From Escherichia coli (GTDB lineage: Bacteria > Pseudomonadota > Gammaproteobacteria > Enterobacterales > Enterobacteriaceae), in assembly GCF_003018255.1 (NCBI RefSeq), contig NZ_CP027440.1: 64,000 bases of DNA; one strand, given 5' to 3'. The notes below the pieces were generated by a model. The model saw only the letters and a list, made by a program, of their open reading frames with translations. It was not told where the DNA came from and ran no database searches. The first letter of the stretch is position 1, and each line of letters begins with the position of its first letter. Positions 12,448-45,069 of the stretch are shown in pieces. The position numbers and the translations under genes were made by a program.

Positions 12448-13157
12448 TATGTATTCTCCTGATGGATGGTTCGGGTGAGGTAAAATTCGGCCAGCGCCAA
12501 ATCCTCCGGGCGCGTTACCTTGATGTTATCCGCGCGGCCTTCAACAAGTTGCGGATGAAAACCGCAATATTCCAGCGCCGAGGCCTCATCGGTAATGGTA
12601 GCGCCTTCATTTAGAGCGCGCGTCAGGCAGTCATGTAACAGCTCACGAGGGAAAAATTGCGGCGTCAGCGCGTGCCATAAGCCGTTGCGATCAACGGTAT
12701 GAGCAATGGCATTTTTGCCCGGTTCGGCACGTTTCATCGTATCGCGCACCGGCGCAGCGAGGATCCCCCCCGTGCGGCTGGTTTCGCTCAACGCCAACAA
12801 TCGCGCGAGGTCATCCTGATGCAGACAAGGACGAGCGGCGTCATGCACCAATACCCACTGCGCGTCGCCAGCGGCTTTCAGACCTGCCAGCACGGAATCG
12901 GCACGCTCTTCACCACCATCAACAACCGTGATTCGTGGATGATTCGCCAGAGGAAGTTGTGCAAAGCGGCTATCGCCAGGACTTATGGCAATGACGACAC
13001 GTTTCACCCTGGGATGCGCCAGCAGCGCATACACCGAGTGTTCAAGAATGGTTTGATTACCGATTGAGAGATATTGCTTAGGACATTCCGTTTGCATTCG
13101 GCGGCCAAATCCGGCCGCCGGAACCACGGCGCAAACATCCAAATGAGTGGTTGCCAT
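12447..13157 (-). CDS. ispD: 2-C-methyl-D-erythritol 4-phosphate cytidylyltransferase
   Basis: 236-aa ORF with [11 protein letters not shown] motif; 1-nt overlap with ispF. Confidence 0.95.
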
Positions 13158-17246: not shown

Positions 17247-18284
17247 ATGTTTTCCGCATTGCGCCACCGTACCGCTGCCCTGGCGCTCGGCGTATGCTTT
17301 ATCCTCCCCGTACACGCCTCGTCACCTAAACCTGGCGATTTTGCTAATACCCAGGCACGACATATTGCTACTTTCTTTCCGGGACGCATGACCGGAACTC
17401 CTGCAGAAATGTTATCTGCCGATTATATTCGCCAACAGTTTCAGCAAATGGGTTATCGCAGTGATATTCGGACATTTAATAGTCGGTATATTTATACCGC
17501 CCGCGATAATCGCAAGAGCTGGCATAACGTGACGGGAAGTACGGTGATTGCCGCTCATGAAGGCAAAGCTCCGCAGCAGATCATCATTATGGCGCATCTG
17601 GATACTTACGCTCCGCTGAGCGATGCTGACGCCGATGCCAATCTCGGCGGGCTGACGTTACAAGGAATAGATGATAACGCCGCAGGTTTAGGTGTCATGC
17701 TGGAACTGGCAGAACGCCTGAAAAATACGCCTACCGAGTATGGTATTCGATTTGTGGCGACCAGTGGTGAAGAGGAAGGGAAATTAGGTGCTGAGAATTT
17801 ACTCAAGCGGATGAGTGACACCGAAAAGAAAAATACGCTGCTGGTGATTAATCTCGATAACTTAATTGTTGGCGATAAATTGTATTTCAATAGTGGTGTA
17901 AAAACCCCTGAAGCAGTAAGGAAATTAACGCGCGACAGGGCGCTGGCAATTGCGCGTAGTCATGGAATTGCCGCAACGACCAATCCGGGTTTGAATAAAA
18001 ATTATCCGAAAGGCACTGGGTGTTGTAATGACGCAGAAATATTCGACAAAGCCGGTATTGCTGTACTTTCGGTGGAAGCGACTAACTGGAATCTTGGGAA
18101 TAAGGATGGTTATCAGCAACGCGCAAAAACAGCCGCATTCCCTGCGGGAAATAGCTGGCATGACGTAAGACTGGATAATCAACAACATATTGATAAGGCG
18201 CTTCCTGGAAGAATAGAACGTCGCTGCCGTGATGTTATGCGGATAATGCTACCTCTGGTGAAGGAGTTGGCGAAGGCGTCTTGA
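17247..18284 (+). CDS. iap: alkaline phosphatase isozyme conversion aminopeptidase (M28 family)
   Basis: 345-aa ORF with signal peptide and M28 peptidase pattern; conserved position beside the CRISPR array. Confidence 0.9.
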   Translation: MFSALRHRTAALALGVCFILPVHASSPKPGDFANTQARHIATFFPGRMTGTPAEMLSADYIRQQFQQMGYRSDIRTFNSRYIYTARDNRKSWHNVTGSTVIAAHEGKAPQQIIIMAHLDTYAPLSDADADANLGGLTLQGIDDNAAGLGVMLELAERLKNTPTEYGIRFVATSGEEEGKLGAENLLKRMSDTEKKNTLLVINLDNLIVGDKLYFNSGVKTPEAVRKLTRDRALAIARSHGIAATTNPGLNKNYPKGTGCCNDAEIFDKAGIAVLSVEATNWNLGNKDGYQQRAKTAAFPAGNSWHDVRLDNQQHIDKALPGRIERRCRDVMRIMLPLVKELAKAS

Positions 18285-18304: not shown

Positions 18305-19188
18305 GGGAGTTCTACCGCAGGGGCGGGGAATTCTAAGTGATATCCATCATCGCATCCAGTGCGCCCGGTTTATCCCCGCTGACGCGGGGAACACACATGA
18401 ATGTCGGTTCAGACCGTGTTTTTACCCGGTTTATCCCCGCTGGCGCGGGGAACACGAGGCTGAACAGGGAGGGGGCTACCGGCACAGCGGTTTATCCCCG
18501 CTGGCGCGGGGAACACTTGCCAACCGCCAAAGACTGGAAAACCAATCTCGGTTTATCCCCGCTGGCGCGGGGAACACTTAAACTTGCCGCCGGTATGGGG
18601 GGAACGGGCCGGTTTATCCCCGCTGGCGCGGGGAACTCGTTTCGCGTCGATCGCCTTTTGCGCAATCGCGCCGGTTTATCCCCGCTGGCGCGGGGAACTC
18701 TTTCTTTTTCCATTTAAGTTATTCTAATACCCCGGTTTATCCCCGCTGGCGCGGGGAACTCGATCATGCCTTACTAAAAGGTCCGCTGACGGGCGGTTTA
18801 TCCCCGCTGGCGCGGGGAACTCATCATGACAAAAAGTTACGCTCATCTATTCAACGGTTTATCCCCGCTGGCGCGGGGAACTCTCCATATGTTGCCCCGC
18901 TCGGGACAACACCCCCGGTTTATCCCCGCTGGCGCGGGGAACTCTTAGCGCCGACAAAAGAAGTTGCGGATAACAGCGGTTTATCCCCGCTGGCGCGGGG
19001 AACTCGCCCGTTCCCAGGGAGTGCGGCTCCACCCCCGCGGTTTATCCCCGCTGACGCGGGGAACTCTTCAGTTTCACACTCGGTAATGCCGTTATTTACG
19101 GTTTATCCCCGCTGGCGCGGGGAACTCCTCGGGGCCAGCCTCCCCCATTAACCCGGCACCGGTTTATCCCCGCTGGCGCGGGGAACTC
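18305..19188 (-). CRISPR. type I-E CRISPR array: 14 intact or near-intact 29-nt repeats plus one degenerate terminal repeat (18305-18333), 14 spacers
   Basis: Plus-strand repeat CGGTTTATCCCCGCTGGCGCGGGGAACTC at a 61-nt period (reverse complement of the canonical E. coli repeat GAGTTCCCCGCGCCAGCGGGGATAAACCG). Spacers are 32 nt, one is 33 nt. The four leader-distal repeats end in CAC rather than CTC. Confidence 0.98.
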
Positions 19189-19293
19189 TCTAAAAGTATA
19201 CATTTGTTCTTAAAGCATTTTTTCCCATAAAAACAACCCACCAACCTTAATGTAACATTTCCTTATTATTAAAGATCAGCTAATTCTTTGTTT
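19189..19293 (-). promoter_or_regulatory. CRISPR leader and promoter region
   Basis: AT-rich about 105 bp between the cas2 stop and the first repeat; shares motifs with the leader of the second array. Confidence 0.7.
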
Positions 19294-20497
<1,204 letters not shown>

Positions 20498-20512
20498 TTT
20501 ATTACACCTCAA

Positions 20513-21112
20513 TCACAGTGGAGCCAAAGATAGCAAGCCACATCCCATCGATTTAGCTGGCCCAATACCTTGCTGTACAAGATCTATTAACGCTGGCGCG
20601 TCGTTGATGGTGATCACCCCTTCAAAGCAAACCGTTTGGATCTTTCCACTTTTACCATCACCAGAAAAATACTGTGGCCGTTCCGATATGGGATGCACAT
20701 CTTCAACGCGCGCCGCATTGCCCAATTTACGTTGCAACCACGCGATTTGTTCTGCTTCTTTTATTAACGGAACCCGACAGCGTTTAATATTCCCTTTACT
20801 GTCCAGGCGCTTTTGATTGTCGAGAATAGTTTTGATCGGATTTGCCCGAAGCCGAAAATAGAGTGGAACACCAACCTGAAGTTGAAATTCAACCTGTTTA
20901 GTTTTAATGACTGTCGCAACGGCAGTAGAAACAGGCATTTGCGCTGACTGCAATAAAACATGACAGCCTTCTGGTGTGTTTCGCTTCTCAACATGAAAAA
21001 GAAAATCACGAGCAGCATCCGGTCTGTTTGGAAATAAATGCCATAATCCCTGGTGAAGTTGGTAAAGATCCCTGCTCCAGGCCCTGGCAATGATGACTTT
21101 ACTGAGATACAT
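20513..21112 (-). CDS. casE: Cas6e (CasE/Cse3) pre-crRNA endoribonuclease
   Basis: 199-aa ORF with N-terminus MYLSKVIIARAWSRDLYQLHQGLW; position in the operon. Confidence 0.95.
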   Translation of the reverse strand: MYLSKVIIARAWSRDLYQLHQGLWHLFPNRPDAARDFLFHVEKRNTPEGCHVLLQSAQMPVSTAVATVIKTKQVEFQLQVGVPLYFRLRANPIKTILDNQKRLDSKGNIKRCRVPLIKEAEQIAWLQRKLGNAARVEDVHPISERPQYFSGDGKSGKIQTVCFEGVITINDAPALIDLVQQGIGPAKSMGCGLLSLAPL

Positions 21113-21773
21113 CCATACCTCCTTTAATCACATACCATTCTCGGGAAGCAAATTGTCGAGGTAAGGTGATCATCGGTTCGTCGCGCACCGTAAATTTTAA
21201 ATGATGCCCGTCAACTGATTCCTCACTATAAATATCGCCGCCAACGGGCTCATAATTTAATAGCGCCTTCTGAGGATCCGACGCCTGACATGTCCCGAGA
21301 AAAAGCGGTTGTGTTAGCGGACAACTCCTCCGCCCCAGATACGGTGTATACCGAGGCTTTAATACTGCTTTTTCAAGTTCTGACATAACCATCGTTGCCT
21401 GTGGTGTTAACCAGATAGCGACGGTAAAGGAGGCATCACATAAATATTCGCGCCATGTTTGAATCGTTTCATGACTTTTCAAACCACGGTAATCTTCTCG
21501 CGCTCCAAGGACTGTATGGTAATCACGCAACCCCGTTACAGACACACGACGATCGTCAAGAATGAGTTCATCGCAGCGCACTGCAAATTGCACACTCTCT
21601 GATAACGCCTGTAATGAAGAAGTATCATCACGTTGGATCCCAAGACAAGCCCCGAGTAGCCCTAATAACCCGCTTCGGGTCGGAAATCTTCCGGTAGGTC
21701 GCGTTCCTTCAAAGGTCGGCTGCCCCCAGGCTTGCATTGGCCCAGCAAGCCGCAAGATCAAATAAGATCTCAT
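21099..21773 (-). CDS. casD: Cas5e (CasD) Cascade subunit
   Basis: Start at MRSYLILRLAGPMQAWGQ, giving 224 aa; 14-nt overlap with casE. Confidence 0.95.
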   Translation of the reverse strand: MRSYLILRLAGPMQAWGQPTFEGTRPTGRFPTRSGLLGLLGACLGIQRDDTSSLQALSESVQFAVRCDELILDDRRVSVTGLRDYHTVLGAREDYRGLKSHETIQTWREYLCDASFTVAIWLTPQATMVMSELEKAVLKPRYTPYLGRRSCPLTQPLFLGTCQASDPQKALLNYEPVGGDIYSEESVDGHHLKFTVRDEPMITLPRQFASREWYVIKGGMDVSQ

Positions 21774-21775
21774 GT

Positions 21776-22867
21776 TCACGCCTCGCCATTATTACGAACC
21801 CAGGATTTTAACTGTTCTAAAGTAGGCATTTGTTTAACTTGAGCAGTAATTGGGTCTACATCAGATAAGCTGAATTGCGCAGCAGCTCCGTTCAGACCAT
21901 ATCCATTGGCAACGCGATCCCAATATTGATTAAACGCCTGTATAGACGGTTGCAAAAAGCCATCTTTCGCTTTAACCGCTTTTTCAAAAGCATTTGCCAT
22001 AGAAAGTGGCATATCGGAGAAATTAACCATTACCATATCCGCAGGGTTAAAAGCGGCATAAGTACGCTGTTTTGCTCCAGGGACCTCTGTTGCCAGCATA
22101 TGAACAACATGGGTTGCAATTTCCAGAGCCTGCTCCCTGGAGGCACCACCTAAATTTTCCTGAAGTTGAGCGAGGTTAATGTTGGCATAACGATAAAAAA
22201 CACCCGATGAAAATTCCTGAGTTCCCAGATGTGCAGAACCTTGTTCCTGTAAATCATCTACAGCGGTGAACCAGTCAATATCAGAATCAACCTGATGAGT
22301 AGTGATCGCATGCGCAATGGACATTGCACCATCAACTTTTCCCAACTCACTCATCATGCCGCTGGTTGCCATTCTTCCACTAAGCGCAATATCAACACCC
22401 TGCTGTAAATTCACACGTATGGCGGCAATATCTTCCTTAAGAACTTTGAGCAGCTTTTTATCATCCAGATTATCAGCCTCTGCTTTTGCAACCTGCTCAC
22501 AGAACCAGGCTATTTCTCCCACAACCCAGGGAGTAACCGCATCGGCAGAAATCTTTTCGGCTTCATCAACTAATTTACCGGAGAGCAGCGCTAATGTCTT
22601 ATCGATGATTTTTTGGTCAAAACGTTCACCAAGTTTTTGCCGAAGAACATCACGTAATTGTGCAAGATGAATTGTTCTGAGACTGGATTCACCAATATTT
22701 TGTGCGTAATAATCACTTTTACGCATCGCATGTTTAAGGCTTTGACTTGAAATTCTTACTCGTCTTTTCCCGCCGAAAATAGCGTCTTTCTGCATGTTCA
22801 TATCGTCGCGGTTCAGACATGAAGGGCTGTGAGAGATCAGAACATGAATATTGATAAAGTTAGACAT
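21776..22867 (-). CDS. casC: Cas7e (CasC/Cse4) Cascade backbone subunit
   Basis: 363-aa ORF with N-terminus [24 protein letters not shown]. Confidence 0.95.
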
Positions 22868-22879
22868 AGAAAGGTTTCC

Positions 22880-23362
22880 TTACGCATTTTTGTTTGTGGT
22901 CAATACAAAATCTTCCAGAAGTTGCTGGCGTTCGCGCTTTCCCCACCAGGTCAACATCCTGGCCATTAATGGCCAGTCAAGTACGGGTTCGGCGTGAGTA
23001 AGTAATCGACGTAACTGGACCATATCGGCTGTTCTGTCAGCCCGAATTAATTGAAAGATACGGCGCTCGTTAATTCTTCCACTATTGGCTAAAGCTCTTC
23101 CCAACGAGATACCTGTTGTTTGCTCCGTTTTTTTGTCCTGATGTCGGATGACATTCTTTCCTGCGCTCAGGCAAAACACCATGCGCAAAAGAGCCTGCTG
23201 GTGACGTGGGTTTTCCCAACCAAAAGATTGCACCAGCCTATAAAACGCAGGGATATCGCGTAATTCATCAGGTTCTGAAACACGTCTAATTTGCGCACAT
23301 GCTCCATTATCCAGTTGTTGCCAGGCTCGATATAAAGCCATTGCATCAATTTCATCAGCCAT
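22880..23362 (-). CDS. casB: Cse2 (CasB) Cascade small subunit
   Basis: 160-aa ORF; 8-nt overlap with the casA 3' end. Confidence 0.95.
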   Translation of the reverse strand: MADEIDAMALYRAWQQLDNGACAQIRRVSEPDELRDIPAFYRLVQSFGWENPRHQQALLRMVFCLSAGKNVIRHQDKKTEQTTGISLGRALANSGRINERRIFQLIRADRTADMVQLRRLLTHAEPVLDWPLMARMLTWWGKRERQQLLEDFVLTTNKNA

Positions 23363-24863
23363 TTGATGGCCCTCCTTGAGGTTTTAACTCCCGTAAATGT
23401 TTGTATAGCGTGGCGCGGGCAAGCGCTAATGTGCTTATTAATTTAGGATGATGTGCATAGGGAGCTACAGATTGATTAAATAGCATTTCACACAATTGAT
23501 GAAGTTTGTCTCGTAAATCAGCTATTACCTCATCAGCTTGGGAAAAATTAATATTCGCCAATACATCGGGAATTAATAATTCACTCTGTCGATAGAAATG
23601 CCTTTCTGCAGTCTCATGAACAGAAACTCCGGCCCCTTTGAAGTCTTTATTTTTAAACCCTTCTGCAAAGGTATATAACGCCTTGCGTAAGGCTGTTTTA
23701 TATCCCAAACCAACAGTCACTATTTCGTTTATCACATTGCCGTATTGTTGCCACCCCTGATTAAACATCAACACATCATGACGCCGTTCAAGAATAGATG
23801 CTTGATTATTACGATATCCCCCCATAATCAATTCAAGAGGACTTTGCGGCGCAATATTTCTGAATTGATTCACAACCGCCGCCACGCGATTTCCATTTTC
23901 ATTTTGAATAATCTTATCTACCACAACTCGGCTGATTTGTGTCCATGATGGTGCGGAGGTGGTGAAAGCAAGAAATTTTTCCTCAACCTCCCCTTTCTTG
24001 ACTGTTACCAGACAAGGGGAATGCGGATGGGGCCATAGCCCATTAACTGTAAAGGTAAATTTTTCCTTAAGAAAACCGGTATAACGCAAATTGCTTTCCT
24101 GACCACAGCAAGAACATTTACCAATCCCAATGGGATCGCATAGTTCAATATGCGCTGGTTGCCAGAATAAACCACGGACAAACCCAATTGAAGAAGCAGG
24201 CACCGATTCATTCGGCTTGACAGGCTTAACCCAGGTAGGTTGGTTTTCCGTATGTAATTCATTGGGAAATTGTTTTTGAAGACGAGGTATTGTGAGGACA
24301 TTGAGTAATACCGTCGAGCGAAGATCGATCCCACATACGAAGGTGGTTATAGGTGTTCCTCCACGTAAACCGCTTTTAAAGCCACCACCAAAACCAGGTG
24401 CCTGATTCGCCTGGTTGAATAACGCAATCGCAGTGCATCCACCACATAATGCTTCACCCTGCCCCGGTTGATTGACAAATGCACAATTCGTCGCGCCGCT
24501 TACCCCAGCCAACAGTTTTTCCATTGGAGTCACATCATTTGCTTTGACACCTTTGGTCTGCATAAAGGGATGTTCTGCGTGATTAAGGTAGAACATATCT
24601 ATCCACGGCGCGATGAGTTGTTGAAACTCATCTTCAGTGAGCGGATTCATTATGCGATGTCGAAATTCAACGTCATCTTTTGCCGGGGCGATAATTTGCC
24701 CAATGCAAACCAGCAGTGCTAAAGTGGCCAGTTCCATATCGTCACGGGGCAAACTTAATCGCCACTGATCTCTACTGCAGTATAGCGATTGCAGATTTAT
24801 GATTTGGACTTTCCCCCCGTTTCGCGGGCGTACAGGGATCCAGTTATCAATAAGCAAATTCAT
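23355..24863 (-). CDS. casA: Cse1 (CasA) Cascade large subunit
   Basis: 502-aa ORF with N-terminus MNLLIDNWIPVRPRNGGKVQIINLQSLY. Confidence 0.95.
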   Translation of the reverse strand: MNLLIDNWIPVRPRNGGKVQIINLQSLYCSRDQWRLSLPRDDMELATLALLVCIGQIIAPAKDDVEFRHRIMNPLTEDEFQQLIAPWIDMFYLNHAEHPFMQTKGVKANDVTPMEKLLAGVSGATNCAFVNQPGQGEALCGGCTAIALFNQANQAPGFGGGFKSGLRGGTPITTFVCGIDLRSTVLLNVLTIPRLQKQFPNELHTENQPTWVKPVKPNESVPASSIGFVRGLFWQPAHIELCDPIGIGKCSCCGQESNLRYTGFLKEKFTFTVNGLWPHPHSPCLVTVKKGEVEEKFLAFTTSAPSWTQISRVVVDKIIQNENGNRVAAVVNQFRNIAPQSPLELIMGGYRNNQASILERRHDVLMFNQGWQQYGNVINEIVTVGLGYKTALRKALYTFAEGFKNKDFKGAGVSVHETAERHFYRQSELLIPDVLANINFSQADEVIADLRDKLHQLCEMLFNQSVAPYAHHPKLISTLALARATLYKHLRELKPQGGPSNG

Positions 24864-25205
24864 TTGTTCTCCTTCATATGCTCCGACATTTCTCCTGCAT
24901 TTCTATGCGTCGGCACACTTCCGTTATCGGTAAAAACAAAGAAAAAATACGGCGTAATTAATTCAATAATCACATTCACTGCAAAAATATATTCATTGGT
25001 TTAATACAATTAACCTATACATATATTAAGATGTGTTGAATTGTTTAAAGACAATAATGCATGCATTTCAAATCTGCAAGTTATTCGTTTTATTATCAAA
25101 GAAATTTTTAGTTATAATAATTACCATAAATTTTATTACATAAAATATTCATACTGTGAATATAAAATCTCATACCGGGAAATTAAAAGAAGATGTACAT
25201 TGTGC
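24864..25205 (-). promoter_or_regulatory. cas3-casA intergenic region holding the cascade operon promoter (Pcas); expected H-NS-bound AT-rich DNA
   Basis: About 340 bp of very AT-rich sequence upstream of casA; promoter and H-NS/LeuO control are taken from established knowledge of the E. coli I-E locus, and no exact -10/-35 was called. Confidence 0.55.
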
Positions 25206-25234
25206 ACTTTCCCTACTTAAGTAGGGATAAACCG
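25206..25234 (+). repeat. solitary degenerate CRISPR-repeat-like hairpin, sense on the plus strand (antisense to cas genes and arrays)
   Basis: ACTTTCCCTACTTAAGTAGGGATAAACCG against the canonical sense repeat GAGTTCCCCGCGCCAGCGGGGATAAACCG: same length, 19/29 identical, terminal GGGATAAACCG identical, 6-bp stem and 4-nt loop kept by compensatory changes. Confidence 0.6.
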
Positions 25235-25277
25235 TTATTGGTCTTGTTATCGTCATTGATACCAATCATTCCCGAAG

Positions 25278-27944
25278 TTATTTGGGATTTGCAGGGATGA
25301 CTCTGGTCATCCCTTCATCCCGAGTGTAGGTAATAACAATATTATTACCCTGCCAGATCCATCCATCCTGATTCTGTTTCCCTTCCAGCCAAAGTAACCC
25401 ATCTTCATCTACTACTTCAGAAAAATTACGTTTCCAGGTGAAGGGTACATTGACGCGATTAAGTGCTAACGCCTCATACTGCTGTTCATGACTTAGGTCC
25501 TCGTAGACCTGGCCATCGAGCAGTTGTTTACCTGAAGACGTTTGTAAATAAGGCAATAATGGCAGGCTCATTTCCCCATCCCTCGTTACCGCAAGAATTG
25601 TTTCATCGTTATCCTGCAAGCTATATTCTTCAGCCCACTGCAGAACCTTGCGAGCCTTGAACCTCTTTTCACACTCAGCGCTTTCAAACTTATCCATGCC
25701 TTTGATGACCCATTCTGGCTCATCCATTTCAGCATCATCGTAAATGCTATCCAGCCATTGCCGGTAGGCATCGGGGAAAAATAAGGATGCTCCATTAAGT
25801 TCCTCAATATGTTGCTGCGTCCGCCACATGACTCTAACGTTGCTATAAATATGCTCATGTCGTCCGTAACCTTCGCCATCAGGCAGCAAAACGGTGGCAA
25901 GAGGAACCTCAAAACCAGCGGGACGATATTTGCGATGATGGCGATGTAAACGGCCCAATCGTTGGAAAAGTAAATCTGCGGGGCAATGCTGAGTAATTAA
26001 CCAATCAAAATCAACGTCGAGTGATTGTTCCACGACCTGGGTGGCGACAAGTATCCGTCCAACATTTCGCTTCCCATTTTTGCCGAAATTGCTAATAACT
26101 CGATTCTCTTTTTCACGACGATCGTTCAGCGTAAAGCGCGCATGAAACAAATCTATATCTACTTGCGTGTTATTTAGTTCCTTTAACCGTTGGTGGCATA
26201 GCTGTGCAACATCAACCAAATTGCAGATAAGACAGACTTGTGCACCCGCATTTGCCGCTACGATCATTCGCTCTAACATCCTAAGGTCAGGTAACATGTC
26301 AGCTAAATAAATAGGTTCTGGCCGAATCGAAAAGCGGGGCGGGAGTTGTTCTGAATGAGCTAACAGATCAAAACGTTGTGCACCATTCACACCTCGCCAG
26401 TTAATGAGTGGATATGCGGAGTTATTTTCCTCTGGATCTGTATGCAGACCATAAGTATCCAGAAGTTTCTGTTTTTGTTTCATTGGTAGAGTTGCGGAAA
26501 GAAGAATAACACTCCCCCCCACATCAGCCTGAGCCTTGAGCACAGCCTCCAGCAAGCCGTTCATATACGTGTCGTAAGCATGAACTTCATCAACAATTAA
26601 AACACTTCGACCAATTCCCAAACCACGGATAAAGCGGTGTTTAACTGGCAATACCGATATCAACACCTGATCAATCGTGCAAACGCCGATTTGCCCAAGA
26701 AACACTTTCTTATTGCTTTGTGACAACCACTGACAACACTGAACCCATGCTTCTTCTTGCCCCTGCTCAGTAAATGCGCGTGATTTTATTGATTGAAAAA
26801 GGTGGTTAAAACGTGAATTACCATGAGCAAGAATAAGATTTGGGGAGGTAAATAAACGGCTCGCGTTCGCTTCCATTCTGCTGAGCATTGCATTTGCAGT
26901 AGCTTGTGTAGGGAGGGCAAAAATAACACTATCCGCAAGTTGTTGGTCAATAAGTTTCCAGGCATAGGCCAGCGCAGTTTCAGTTTTACCTGAACCCGTA
27001 GGTGCCTCTATTACCGTCAGCCCGGGCGCTACTGGAAGAGCATCAACTAACACTTGTAATTGTCTGGGTTGATAGCCATTGTCCAGTAGAGCATGAACAC
27101 CTTCATAACATCGCTTATTTGATACAAGGCCGCTCAACTCCAATACCCGGCTCGCATCCTGCTGTCGGTCCTGGAAATACGTTCTTAGAGCATTTATGTT
27201 GGAAGGTGCATCCTCTTTAAACAGAAAGGTATTCGTTGTAGTCCAGGAGCCTAACCAGTCAGCAAGCGAGCAAAAACCTGCTAACAGTGATGAACAATCA
27301 GGTGGTATATCGTTTATAGATAACCCGGCTGGCGTTAAAAATAATGCTTCGAGTACAGATATCCACTCCTCACGAGCCTGTTTATCTTGCGCAGCATAAG
27401 ATGCCAGAGAAGCTGGCATTTCCCAACGCGACTTATCTTGATCCTGGGAATGTAATATAAAACCATGATGTCCTGTAACAGCCTCTACCCATGGAAACCA
27501 GGACTCATAAGGATGAGGAGCGGCATCAAAAAAACTGAAAAAATCCCCGGGAGATTGCTCTGAAAGTGAATCCTGGTTAAACCAATACAGACCGGCTGCA
27601 CCATGATTAAATTTACGGCACATTTGTGTTGATGGACCATTAAGTGATGGCGTTGCAGGATTTAATTTCAGCCAACTTTCTGCTGATTTATATTGGAATC
27701 GTATATCAAACTTTCCGATATCATGAAGGGCAATGAAAAATAACAGCCAGGCTTTCACCTTCTGTTTTGATAGCATTTCATTTCGGCAAAAAGCATTTTG
27801 TAGTACGACTGATTGATCCCACCAGCAATCTGCAACAGCTGCAACATCCAGGCAATGATAAATCAACAGATGAATATCATTTCCTTTCGTCAGGCTTTTT
27901 GAGGATTTCCCCCAGTAATGACATATATATTTAAAAGGTTCCAT
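25278..27944 (-). CDS. cas3: Cas3 HD nuclease / SF2 helicase (type I signature protein)
   Basis: 888-aa ORF with HD-domain N-terminus (HCLDVAAVADCWW...) and helicase motifs (GSGKTE, DEVH). Confidence 0.95.
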   Translation of the reverse strand: MEPFKYICHYWGKSSKSLTKGNDIHLLIYHCLDVAAVADCWWDQSVVLQNAFCRNEMLSKQKVKAWLLFFIALHDIGKFDIRFQYKSAESWLKLNPATPSLNGPSTQMCRKFNHGAAGLYWFNQDSLSEQSPGDFFSFFDAAPHPYESWFPWVEAVTGHHGFILHSQDQDKSRWEMPASLASYAAQDKQAREEWISVLEALFLTPAGLSINDIPPDCSSLLAGFCSLADWLGSWTTTNTFLFKEDAPSNINALRTYFQDRQQDASRVLELSGLVSNKRCYEGVHALLDNGYQPRQLQVLVDALPVAPGLTVIEAPTGSGKTETALAYAWKLIDQQLADSVIFALPTQATANAMLSRMEANASRLFTSPNLILAHGNSRFNHLFQSIKSRAFTEQGQEEAWVQCCQWLSQSNKKVFLGQIGVCTIDQVLISVLPVKHRFIRGLGIGRSVLIVDEVHAYDTYMNGLLEAVLKAQADVGGSVILLSATLPMKQKQKLLDTYGLHTDPEENNSAYPLINWRGVNGAQRFDLLAHSEQLPPRFSIRPEPIYLADMLPDLRMLERMIVAANAGAQVCLICNLVDVAQLCHQRLKELNNTQVDIDLFHARFTLNDRREKENRVISNFGKNGKRNVGRILVATQVVEQSLDVDFDWLITQHCPADLLFQRLGRLHRHHRKYRPAGFEVPLATVLLPDGEGYGRHEHIYSNVRVMWRTQQHIEELNGASLFFPDAYRQWLDSIYDDAEMDEPEWVIKGMDKFESAECEKRFKARKVLQWAEEYSLQDNDETILAVTRDGEMSLPLLPYLQTSSGKQLLDGQVYEDLSHEQQYEALALNRVNVPFTWKRNFSEVVDEDGLLWLEGKQNQDGWIWQGNNIVITYTRDEGMTRVIPANPK

Positions 27945-28246
27945 TAATAGCCTCCCTGTTTTTTTAGTATTATCGATGATATCAGTGGACTATTTTTCGA
28001 TGCTGCTCATAAATATCGAATTACAGTGATATACACATGTCTTGCCTCCCTGCAAAGAAGAGACTAACATTCGAATTGCTTAGGTTCGAACGCAGGCCTC
28101 AGGTTGATAGAAATATCGCCTGGGGCTTTTGTCCATCTGGAACCTCGCGAATGCTTAACGCCAGACAGCCTCAAGCACCCAACTCCATTCTATACCTGTT
28201 AATTCTCCCTGCGATGTTCACCTTTAAATGCCGGAATGCTGCTCGC

Positions 28247-44132: not shown

Positions 44133-44271
44133 ACATACCTGAATGGTTATCCCCGCTGACGCGGGGAACATAAGTTCGACAACTTAAAAAATGATAACAA
44201 GTCCGGTTTATCCCCGCTGATGCAGGGAACATAATAAAAACTTTAACTAGTTCGGTTTATCCCTGTTTTTA
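44133..44271 (-). CRISPR. degenerate CRISPR remnant: three decayed repeats with AT-rich spacer-length intervals
   Basis: GGTTATCCCCGCTGACGCGGGGAACA, CGGTTTATCCCCGCTGATGCAGGGAACAT and CGGTTTATCCCTGTTTTTACAAGGAATAT at about 60-nt spacing, just downstream of ygcE. Confidence 0.8.
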
Positions 44272-44735: not shown

Positions 44736-45069
44736 TGGTTTATCCCCGCAGGCGCGGGGAACTCATAGAGAAAAGAAACGGCAGCTTTGCCACTTCCGGT
44801 TTATCCCCGCTGGCGCGGGGAACTCCGCGTTTCTAATCTCACCGCCACGGCGATCAACGGTTTATCCCCGCTGGCGCGGGGAACTCACCCCTTTAACGTC
44901 ACCAGACCGCTAACGACGCGGTTTATCCCCGCTGGCGCGGGGAACTCGCGTAACCATTTTGATGGCGCTACCGAAATGGCGGTTTATCCCCGCTGGCGCG
45001 GGGAACTCGATCAACGGCCTGGCGGCTGCCTCTGAAATCTCGGTTTATCCCCGCTGGCGCGGGGAACTC
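44736..45069 (-). CRISPR. orphan type I-E CRISPR array: 6 repeats, 5 spacers of 32 nt
   Basis: Same repeat as the cas-adjacent array at a 61-nt period; the leader-distal repeat is a variant (TGGTTTATCCCCGCAGGCGCGGGGAACTC). Confidence 0.97.

What the first reader, a model, noticed from the sequence alone, without database searches (positions are those of the whole stretch)
18305..19188. cas-adjacent array: 14 spacers, repeat polymorphism tracking array age, and unknown targets
The four leader-distal intact repeats end ...GGGGAACAC while the leader-proximal ones end ...GGGGAACTC (sense GTGTT against GAGTT), and two repeats carry CTGACG instead of CTGGCG. This points to stepwise divergence or recombination between repeat variants. 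One spacer is 33 nt (18639-18671). The terminal repeat next to iap is degenerate (19/29). Spacer targets, including any self-targeting, cannot be judged by eye.
Basis: seen in the sequence. Interest (0 to 1): 0.4.

Follow-up and report, generated by a model that had tools for sequence, protein, structure and literature searches.

The report
Ordinary E. coli K-12-type CRISPR array
This is the well-known CRISPR array beside the iap gene of Escherichia coli; its repeat variants are a published polymorphism inherited from the repeat next to the leader, and several spacers match coliphages and prophages, so it is ordinary.

Summary
There are 15 repeats: 14 intact 29-nt repeats plus a 19/29 degenerate one beside iap. 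There are 14 spacers, one of them 33 nt. The four leader-distal repeats are GTGTT and the ten leader-proximal ones GAGTT, and two repeats carry a loop variant.

The locus is the canonical E. coli CRISPR2.1 (CRISPR-I) array of a K-12-type (cas-E2, leader-T) type I-E system with all eight cas genes intact. The GTGTT/GAGTT difference is the published CRISPR-A/CRISPR-T dichotomy. It runs in blocks because each new repeat copies the leader-adjacent repeat.

In 13 related arrays, A-type repeats sit at the trailer end, with 17 switches observed against about 58 expected by permutation. The old trailer (degenerate repeat, sp14, sp13) also occurs in arrays next to the other cas variant.

The two loop variants are unrelated. 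One is ancestral and widely shared. The other is private to this strain.

Sister arrays (JNE112863, JNE23-011) differ from the window only in which internal spacers are present.

Targets were found for 5 to 6 of the 14 spacers: P1/P7, a siphophage/lambdoid tape measure gene, a prophage tail-tip gene, a terminase, a Rac-site prophage, and possibly plasmid virB9. No self-target was found.

The finding is already known and of low interest.

The parts
18305..19188 (-). CRISPR2.1 (CRISPR-I) array: 15 repeats and 14 spacers. The sense strand is the minus strand, and the leader lies at the high-coordinate end.
   Evidence: RefSeq annotates the homologous region of related genomes as CRISPR.
18305..18333 (-). 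Degenerate terminal repeat (19/29), which with sp14 forms the conserved iap-proximal anchor unit.
   Evidence: The same unit is present in cas-E2 and cas-E1 arrays. It is described in PMC3903273.
18334..18365 (-). Spacer 14, the oldest spacer, shared across E. coli. No target was found in the two collections searched for it (phages, plasmids).
   Evidence: It gave no phage hit; its only plasmid-collection hits were chromosome-sized E. coli records carrying the array itself.
18366..18577 (-). CRISPR-A block: repeats R14-R11 (sense GTGTT) with spacers 13, 12 and 11. R14 also carries the loop variant GTCA.
   Evidence: At least 57 genomes carry the sp13-12-11 block.
18395..18426 (-). Spacer 13. 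It matches phage P7 and P1-like phage-plasmids 32/32 (upf94.2/lxr gene). The PAM is CTG in P7-type targets. Reference P1 matches 28/32 with PAM ATG.
18517..18548 (-). Spacer 11. It tentatively matches virB9 of P-type conjugative plasmids at 26-27/32.
   Evidence: E-values were 0.2-0.7, and the PAMs in these distant homologues are AAC and TTA.
18610..19188 (-). CRISPR-T block: repeats R10-R1 (sense GAGTT) with spacers 9 to 1.
18639..18671 (-). Spacer 9, 33 nt. It was not found in any of 5,426 complete E. coli genomes, and no target was found.
18823..18854 (-). Spacer 6. It matches a lambdoid prophage at the ttcA (Rac) site of strains STEC384 and STEC379 at 31/32, with PAM GAG.
18945..18976 (-). 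Spacer 4. It matches a prophage terminase large-subunit gene at 28/32. Three of the four mismatches fall at multiples of 3. The PAM in this diverged homologue is AAA.
19038..19066 (-). Repeat R3, with a private loop change (sense GCCA to GTCA).
   Evidence: The homologous repeat is TGGC in JNE112863. The predicted hairpin energy is unchanged.
19067..19098 (-). Spacer 2. It matches a prophage tail-tip J-related gene in strain JNE151685 at 30/32, with the canonical PAM AAG.
19128..19159 (-). Spacer 1, the newest spacer. It matches the tape measure gene of Dhillonvirus phages at 28/32 and of HK022-like lambdoid phages at 26/30. Most mismatches are spaced three apart (positions 2, 5, 8, 11 in phage Envy). 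The PAM is AGG.
19189..19293 (-). Leader of K-12 type (leader-T / L2).
   Evidence: In the 130-nt leader alignment it differs from the K-12 leader at only 2 positions. It is clearly different from leader-A of TUM14771 and S21.
19294..27944 (-). Complete type I-E cas operon of the cas-E2 variant: cas2, cas1, cas6e, cas5, cas7, cse2, cse1, cas3.
   Evidence: All eight proteins score above the NCBIfam curated cut-offs. The window stretch 19201-21725 (leader to the start of cas5) is 97.5% identical to K-12, the extent of the K-12 locus fetched. There is no blastn similarity to a cas-E1 locus.
17247..18284 (+). iap, the aminopeptidase gene that flanks the trailer end of the array.

Best explanation
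The feature is the CRISPR2.1 (CRISPR-I) array of an Escherichia coli strain carrying the K-12-type type I-E system (cas-E2 genes, leader-T).

How it works, by inference from K-12 biology: transcription starts in the leader and runs on the minus strand. Cas6e cuts each repeat after its 7-bp stem-loop, giving crRNAs that arm Cascade and Cas3 against DNA carrying a matching protospacer next to an AAG-type PAM.

Cas1-Cas2 insert new spacers at the leader end. Each insertion duplicates the leader-adjacent repeat, so any change in that repeat is inherited by every later unit.

The four GTGTT (CRISPR-A) repeats are therefore an old trailer, built when the leader-adjacent repeat was A-type. The ten GAGTT (CRISPR-T) repeats were added after that repeat became T-type. 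The switch may have come with the K-12-type cas and leader module, or from a point change in that one repeat.

The loop variant at 18366 is part of the ancestral trailer. The one at 19038 is a private late substitution in the hairpin loop, with no predicted effect on folding.

The differences from sister arrays are best read as repeat-repeat deletions of internal units.

Shown: the anatomy, the variant typing, the block order in relatives and the targets. Inferred: expression, crRNA processing, interference and how the boundary arose.
For: - **Anatomy.** The array's structure is established.
- **cas genes.** All eight are intact and named type I-E by NCBIfam.
- **System variant.** The leader matches K-12 at all but 2 of 130 aligned positions, and the leader-to-cas5 stretch is 97.5% identical to K-12. 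There is no similarity to a cas-E1 locus.
- **Published A/T dichotomy.** The A/T repeat variants, their linkage to leader and cas variants, and the replica-of-the-leader-adjacent-repeat rule are in PMC3737337.
- **Block order in relatives.** In 13 arrays there were 17 A/T switches, against a mean of 57.8 and a minimum of 41 in 20,000 permutations (data).
- **CRISPR2.3 arrays.** These are also homogeneous per array, all-A or all-T behind a single T-type terminal repeat, even with identical leaders.
- **Shared trailer.** Strain S21, which has leader-A and the other Cas protein set, carries the same degenerate repeat, sp14 and sp13. This matches PMC3903273.
- **Sister arrays.** JNE112863 and JNE23-011 share 12 and 9 of the 14 spacers respectively, in the same order. 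They differ only in which internal units are present, and have TGGC at the repeats flanking sp2, where the window's R3 has TGAC.
- **Targets and PAMs.** These are documented.
Against: - No expression, processing or interference data exist for this strain. K-12-type systems are H-NS-silenced in the laboratory.
- Two related arrays (LD93-1, NH-21) have a T-type repeat inside the A-type block. Order is therefore not strictly age-determined, and some rearrangement occurs.
- sp12 and sp11 sit between A-type repeats, but among the listed genomes they were found only in K-12-type loci. It is therefore unclear whether the whole A-type block predates the cas module exchange.
- The surveyed arrays share ancestry, so the permutation figures overstate independence.
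- Eight spacers have no identified target.
Confidence: 0.9

Rival explanations
1. The A-to-T boundary is a recombination junction. A K-12-type module (cas-E2, leader-T and at least one T-type repeat) replaced the resident O157-type module, with a crossover inside the array. The old A-type trailer was left in place, and all later spacers were added behind the imported T-type repeat.
For: - Module replacement with its own leader is published (PMC3903273).
- T-type repeats are linked to leader-T.
- The trailer (degenerate repeat, sp14, sp13) is shared with a cas-E1 array.
- A sister lineage changes two repeat sites at once after sp11 (TGGC/A to TGAC/T) with no intermediate.
- Boundaries lie at different spacers in different strains.
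- The sp13 protospacer in P1 has PAM ATG, which is typical of leader-A arrays and rare in leader-T arrays.
Against: - In this lineage only one site changes, so a point mutation explains the boundary equally well.
- sp12, sp11, n1 and sp10 were not found in any leader-A array among the listed hits.
- CRISPR2.3 arrays show the reverse switch (T then A) with an unchanged leader, so switches can occur without a module exchange.
- Deletions can move or erase the original junction.
Confidence: 0.4
2. The boundary is an in-situ point mutation (sense T to A at repeat position 2) in the leader-adjacent repeat of an ancestor. It was then propagated by normal repeat duplication, with no recombination involved.
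For: - There is a single-site difference between the two blocks in this lineage.
- The copying rule is established.
- CRISPR2.3 arrays show that switches occur in either direction beside an identical leader.
Against: - It requires the same substitution independently in several lineages of K-12-type arrays.
- It does not explain the strict published association of T-type repeats with leader-T.
- It does not explain the two-site switch in the sister lineage.
Confidence: 0.4
3. The variant repeats are independent random mutations, or sequencing errors, in individual repeats, and carry no historical signal.
For: The single loop change at 19038 is private to this sequence and could in principle be an assembly error. 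Isolated loop variants also occur in the O145 and K-12 arrays.
Against: - The four A-type repeats are contiguous (1/1001 by chance).
- The same repeats flank the same spacers in at least 10 other genomes.
- The 18366 loop variant is conserved in those genomes.
Confidence: 0.03
4. The array is self-targeting and acts in gene regulation or autoimmunity rather than defence.
For: None was found. Three spacers (sp2, sp4, sp6) match prophages, but these are in other E. coli strains.
Against: - No spacer matches elsewhere in the 64-kb window with 9 or fewer mismatches.
- Spacers 1-10 have near-exact matches only inside CRISPR arrays in 5,426 complete E. coli genomes.
- The distant-mode hits are in prophage genes of unrelated strains.
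Confidence: 0.05

Closest known systems
E. coli K-12 CRISPR-I / CRISPR2.1 array (iap-cas2; Ishino 1987; the type I-E model system)
   Same: - It has the same locus (iap, array, leader, cas2), the same 29-nt repeat and a leader that differs at 2 of 130 aligned positions.
- It has the same cas-E2 gene set at K-12 protein lengths.
- The same kind of degenerate iap-proximal terminal repeat is reported for most strains (PMC3903273; not re-extracted from K-12 here).
- The oldest intact repeat is A-type and is followed by T-type repeats.
- It also has occasional 33-nt spacers.
   Different: - The spacer content was entirely different in my parse of the K-12 array, which did not recover K-12's degenerate terminal unit; from memory K-12 has a near-copy of sp14 there, not re-checked here.
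- This array keeps four A-type repeats at the trailer, against one in K-12.
- No complete genome in the collection has this exact spacer order.
CRISPR-A / CRISPR-T repeat variants linked to leader-A/cas-EO and leader-T/cas-EK (Diez-Villasenor et al. 2013, PMC3737337; Almendros et al. 2014, PMC3903273)
   Same: [quoted passage not shown] The leader-proximal repeats are T-type, matching the leader-T and K-12-type cas genes found here.
   Different: The papers describe arrays as mainly A or T-enriched. Here the mixture is resolved as one clean boundary after spacer 10. Related strains place the boundary at other spacers.
Arrays of E. coli JNE112863, JNE23-011 and DETEC-S792 (RefSeq complete genomes)
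   Same: - All three share the trailer, though the two JNE arrays lack sp12.
- JNE112863 shares 12 of the 14 spacers and JNE23-011 shares 9, in the same order.
- All three encode identical Iap, Cas1 and Cas2 proteins to one another.
- DETEC-S792 is 98.9% identical to the window over 24 kb.
   Different: - The window lacks spacer n1 and five spacers lying between sp4 and sp3.
- It keeps sp12 and sp9, which the JNE arrays lack.
- It alone has the loop change at 19038.

Membership tests
CRISPR array, E. coli type-2 repeat (type I-E) | Regularly spaced direct repeats of about 29 nt separated by unique spacers of about 32 nt | tested here: met
   There are 14 intact repeats and one degenerate repeat at 61-62 nt spacing, and all spacers are unique within the window.
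CRISPR array, E. coli type-2 repeat (type I-E) | Repeat matches the published consensus CGGTTTATCCCCGCTG(A/G)CGCGGGGAACWC | tested here: met
   All 14 intact repeats fit this consensus. The consensus is quoted in PMC3737337.
CRISPR array, E. coli type-2 repeat (type I-E) | Palindromic core able to form the Cas6e stem-loop | tested here: met
   A 7-bp stem with a 4-nt loop is predicted at about -15 kcal/mol for all three repeat variants.
CRISPR array, E. coli type-2 repeat (type I-E) | AT-rich leader at one end and a degenerate repeat at the other | tested here: met
   The leader at 19189-19293 matches the K-12 leader at all but 2 of 130 aligned positions. The degenerate repeat is at 18305-18333.
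CRISPR array, E. coli type-2 repeat (type I-E) | Adjacent complete type I-E cas gene set | tested here: met
   Cas2, Cas1, Cas6e, Cas5, Cas7, Cse2, Cse1 and Cas3 all score above the NCBIfam cut-offs and have K-12 lengths.
CRISPR array, E. coli type-2 repeat (type I-E) | Spacers derive from mobile elements with an AAG/AWG-type PAM | tested here: inconclusive
   Five spacers match phage or prophage genes. The PAMs are AAG (sp2), AGG (sp1), GAG (sp6), ATG in P1 but CTG in P7-type targets (sp13), and AAA in a diverged homologue (sp4). Eight spacers have no match.
CRISPR array, E. coli type-2 repeat (type I-E) | Transcribed and processed into crRNAs that confer interference | not testable with these tools
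   This needs RNA and plasmid or phage challenge assays. The simple promoter scan found nothing in the leader and Rfam has no matching family. Neither result is informative.
K-12-type variant (cas-E2 / cas-EK with leader-T / L2) | Leader of type T | tested here: met
   The leader differs from K-12's at 2 of 130 aligned positions and is clearly different from the leaders of TUM14771 and S21.
K-12-type variant (cas-E2 / cas-EK with leader-T / L2) | cas genes of the K-12 variant, strongly diverged from the O157-type variant | tested here: met
   The leader-to-cas5 stretch available for K-12 is 97.5% identical at the nucleotide level. There is no blastn hit at E<1e-5 to the TUM14771 cas locus.
K-12-type variant (cas-E2 / cas-EK with leader-T / L2) | Leader-proximal repeats of CRISPR-T type | tested here: met
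   R1 to R10 end in ACTC.
Self-targeting CRISPR array | A spacer matches the host's own genome outside the array | tested here: inconclusive
   No match was found in the 64-kb window. The near-exact E. coli genome search covered only spacers 1-10 and hit only CRISPR arrays. The strain's full genome is not available.

The most novel reading that the evidence does not exclude
The position of the A-to-T repeat boundary may be a fossil of the cas-E1 to cas-E2 module exchange. Each distinct boundary would then mark an independent crossover inside the array. Examples are the boundary after sp10 here, one spacer later in 18KM2445, after sp11 with a different T haplotype in the sister lineage, and after one spacer in K-12 and O145. 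On this reading, repeat haplotypes could be used to count and order module-replacement events across E. coli.
Probability: 0.3. Interest if true: 0.3.

Novelty: already known. Interest (0 to 1): 0.1.

Why it matters
It matters little beyond housekeeping. The locus is the founding example of CRISPR, and the repeat polymorphism, the terminal anchor unit, the 33-nt spacer class and spacers against P1 are all in the literature.

The useful outcomes are practical. The array can be annotated with confidence as a K-12-type I-E CRISPR2.1 array. Its spacer order places the strain next to JNE112863, JNE23-011 and DETEC-S792, which is useful for typing. Its newest spacers record encounters with siphophage/lambdoid tail genes and prophages.

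The repeat haplotype boundary could serve as a cheap marker for the history of cas module exchange, if someone wished to survey it species-wide.

Tried and rejected
- **Tandem Repeats Finder** found nothing, as expected for CRISPR units.
- **Rfam** has no family matching the repeats.
- **The promoter scan** found nothing in the leader, which is uninformative.
- **IMG/VR scans** for sp9, sp3, sp8, sp5, sp7 and sp12 gave no hit. These were exact scans with every sixth position free. A positive control with sp13 found 33 contigs. sp10 and sp14 were not scanned in IMG/VR.
- **A Fels-1 tape measure match for sp10** (23/24, E=3) was dismissed as chance.
- **The idea that the cas variant imposes the A or T nucleotide on new repeats** was considered because this window's distant CRISPR2.3 array is also all T-type. 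It was rejected because K-12 and LD93-1, which carry the same cas variant and the same leader2.3, have A-type CRISPR2.3 arrays.
- **The idea that the two CTGACG repeats share descent or arose by conversion** was rejected for 19038, because JNE112863 has TGGC at that repeat.
- **A second repeat-like unit** to pair with the solitary one in the cas3-cse1 spacer region was looked for, and none was convincing.
- **The metagenome and genome-collection scans** were not used, because the cost was not justified for an ordinary locus.

Full report
**Observation**

The region 18305-19188 holds 14 intact 29-nt repeats (+ strand CGGTTTATCCCCGCTGGCGCGGGGAACTC). They are spaced 61 nt apart, except for one 62-nt step. 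A copy at 18305-18333 matches the consensus at 19 of 29 positions and lies 21 nt after the iap stop codon.

This gives 14 spacers: 13 of 32 nt and one of 33 nt at 18639-18671. Counting from the leader, which lies at the high-coordinate end, repeats R1-R10 read GAGTT... on the sense (minus) strand and R11-R14 read GTGTT.... R3 (19038) and R14 (18366) carry GTCA instead of GCCA in the hairpin loop.

**Context**

- iap (17247-18284, + strand) precedes the array.
- A roughly 105-nt AT-rich leader follows it.
- On the minus strand come cas2, cas1, cas6e, cas5, cas7, cse2, cse1 and cas3. All are intact, have K-12 lengths and score above the NCBIfam cut-offs for type I-E.
- A 24-kb stretch is 98.9% identical to E. 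coli DETEC-S792 and about 97% identical to many other E. coli genomes.
- No complete genome among 5,426 has this exact array.
- A second array (44736-45069, five spacers) and a two-repeat remnant (44143-44232) correspond to CRISPR2.3 and CRISPR2.2.

**Which variant of the system**

The leader differs from the K-12 leader at 2 of 130 aligned positions. The window stretch 19201-21725 (leader to the start of cas5) is 97.5% identical to K-12; the fetched K-12 locus ends there. The window's cas region (19201-28000) has no blastn similarity to the cas locus of TUM14771, which has a different leader and all A-type repeats.

In the published nomenclature this is cas-EK/E2 with leader-T/L2 (PMC3737337; PMC3903273).

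**The GTGTT/GAGTT polymorphism**

Diez-Villasenor et al. 2013 describe two main repeat variants in E. coli, CRISPR-A and CRISPR-T. [quoted passage not shown] CRISPR-T goes with leader-T and the K-12 cas variant. CRISPR-A goes with leader-A and the O157 variant. The same paper summarises the evidence that the new repeat made at each acquisition is a replica of the repeat adjoining the leader. The window therefore has ten T-type units at the leader end and four A-type units at the trailer.

- In 13 K-12-type CRISPR2.1 arrays, the A-type repeats are at the trailer end.
- The total number of A/T switches is 17. In 20,000 permutations the mean was 57.8 and the minimum 41.
- For the window alone, the arrangement has probability 1/1001.
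- The arrays share ancestry, so these figures are not independent tests, but the pattern is plainly not random.
- LD93-1 and NH-21 have one T-type repeat inside the A-type block, so rearrangements do occur.
- CRISPR2.3 arrays behave the same way. Behind a single T-type terminal repeat, each is homogeneous: all-T in the window and 18KM2445, all-A in K-12, LD93-1 and TUM14771.
- The CRISPR2.3 leaders are virtually identical in the two strains aligned, the window and TUM14771 (137 of 140 positions), and begin identically in all five. This rules out the idea that the cas variant dictates the nucleotide. It supports simple inheritance from the leader-adjacent repeat.

**How the boundary arose**

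The trailer unit (degenerate repeat plus sp14) is known to be shared regardless of cas variant. I found in addition that strain S21, with leader-A and the other Cas protein set, carries sp13 next to it. At least that part of the array therefore predates or survived the exchange of cas modules.

After sp11 a sister lineage (LD93-1, CUPS04, 504239, 63-2, NH-21, WS0115A) switches at two sites at once, from TGGC/A to TGAC/T. The window lineage adds two more A-flanked spacers and then switches at one site. Strain 18KM2445 switches one spacer later.

These data fit import of a T-type repeat together with the K-12-type module. They do not exclude a point change in the leader-adjacent repeat, and later deletions can shift the apparent junction. 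I rate the two origins about equally likely.

**The two loop variants**

R14's variant is present in nearly all arrays sharing this trailer, so it is ancestral. R3 lies between sp3 and sp2. JNE112863 has sp3, sp2 and sp1 in the same order but TGGC at that repeat, and JNE23-011 has TGGC on both sides of sp2. R2 and R1 in the window are also TGGC.

The change at 19038 therefore arose after sp1 was acquired and after the split from those strains. It is a single C-to-T transition on the sense strand, in the hairpin loop. The predicted hairpin is unchanged.

Isolated loop changes also occur in O145 RM12761 and K-12, so the loop seems tolerant of change. An assembly error cannot be excluded.

**Array history**

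The union of the related arrays gives this order: 14, 13, 12, 11, n1, 10, 9, 8, 7, 6, 5, 4, five further spacers, 3, 2, 1.

- The window lacks n1 and the five further spacers.
- JNE112863 lacks 12 and 9.
- JNE23-011 lacks 12, 9, 8, 7, the five further spacers and 3.

All of these differences are explained by loss of internal units. This agrees with the report that spacer deletion is far more frequent than repeat mutation (PMC12839519).

**Spacer targets**

- **sp13** matches phage P7 and about a hundred P1-like phage-plasmids 32/32, in the upf94.2/lxr gene. All 33 exact protospacers in IMG/VR have PAM CTG. Reference P1, at 28/32, has ATG. This looks like a PAM escape.
- **sp1** matches the tape measure gene of Dhillonvirus phages at 28/32 and of HK022-like lambdoid phages at 26/30. 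Most mismatches are spaced three apart (positions 2, 5, 8, 11 in phage Envy), a sign of true coding homology. The PAM is AGG.
- **sp2** matches a prophage tail-tip J-like gene at 30/32 with PAM AAG.
- **sp6** matches a Rac-site lambdoid prophage at 31/32 with PAM GAG.
- **sp4** matches a prophage terminase gene at 28/32, with PAM AAA in that homologue.
- **sp11** matches virB9 of two unrelated conjugative-type plasmids at 26-27/32. This is tentative.
- **The remaining eight spacers** have no identified target. sp3, 5, 7, 8, 9 and 12 had no match in phage, plasmid or IMG/VR searches. sp10 had only a chance-level hit and was not scanned in IMG/VR. sp14 was searched only against the phage and plasmid collections.
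- **Self-targeting.** No spacer matches elsewhere in the window. sp1-10 match only CRISPR arrays at near-exact level in E. coli genomes.
- **sp8** recurs, with one mismatch, in the CRISPR2.3 arrays of eight other strains.

**Verdict**

This is an ordinary, already described locus.

Noticed in passing
window 25206-25234 (+ strand), with a partial target at 25078-25097: The cas3-cse1 intergenic region holds a solitary CRISPR-repeat-like hairpin, ACTTTCCCTACTTAAGTAGGGATAAACCG. Its last 11 nt are identical to the repeat, and it is oriented opposite to the cas genes. The 32 nt after it match a site 150 nt away that is preceded by AAG: positions 1-5, 7-8, 10-11 and 13-17 pair. The cas-E1 locus of TUM14771 (L050, about 12580-12665) has two such units and a similar AAG-flanked partial target. 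This fits the published cas-regulating mini-array/CreR idea (PMC10120712; preprint 10.1101/2023.03.10.532045). A second unit in the window was not convincing.
   Followed up: partly
window 44736-45069 and 44143-44232: These are the CRISPR2.3 array (six repeats, five spacers, all T-type, with its own leader after 45069) and the two-repeat CRISPR2.2 remnant. K-12 and LD93-1 have the same cas variant, and their leader2.3 begins identically, yet their CRISPR2.3 arrays are A-type. The A/T state at this array therefore does not follow the cas variant.
   Followed up: partly
window 18701-18732 (spacer 8); L006 2501-2532: Spacer 8 occurs with one mismatch in the CRISPR2.3 arrays of eight other E. coli strains that have A-type repeats. 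This means either independent acquisition of the same protospacer from related invaders or movement of a unit between arrays. No target was found for it.
   Followed up: partly
L002 (LD93-1) and L054 (NH-21) CRISPR2.1 arrays: A single TGAC/T-type repeat lies inside the A-type trailer block, next to spacers that the window lacks between sp13 and sp12. This departs from strict age order and suggests recombination or an internal insertion.
   Followed up: no
L003 (CUPS04) and L049 (O145:H28 RM12761) arrays: Each has one spacer-repeat unit duplicated in tandem: the same spacer appears twice in a row.
   Followed up: no
L014-L046 (IMG/VR P1-like contigs), L007 (P7), L008 (P1): All 33 exact sp13 protospacers in IMG/VR, and the one in P7, are preceded by CTG. 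Reference P1, with four mismatches, has ATG. A very widely conserved spacer thus faces targets that differ from an acquisition-type PAM by one base, as expected for escape variants.
   Followed up: partly
L050 15586-15738 (TUM14771): In the cas-E1 strain a Hok/Gef family toxin gene lies between cas3 and cysH, and cas3 is annotated as frameshifted. I did not check whether the window has a counterpart between cas3 (ending at 27944) and cysH.
   Followed up: no
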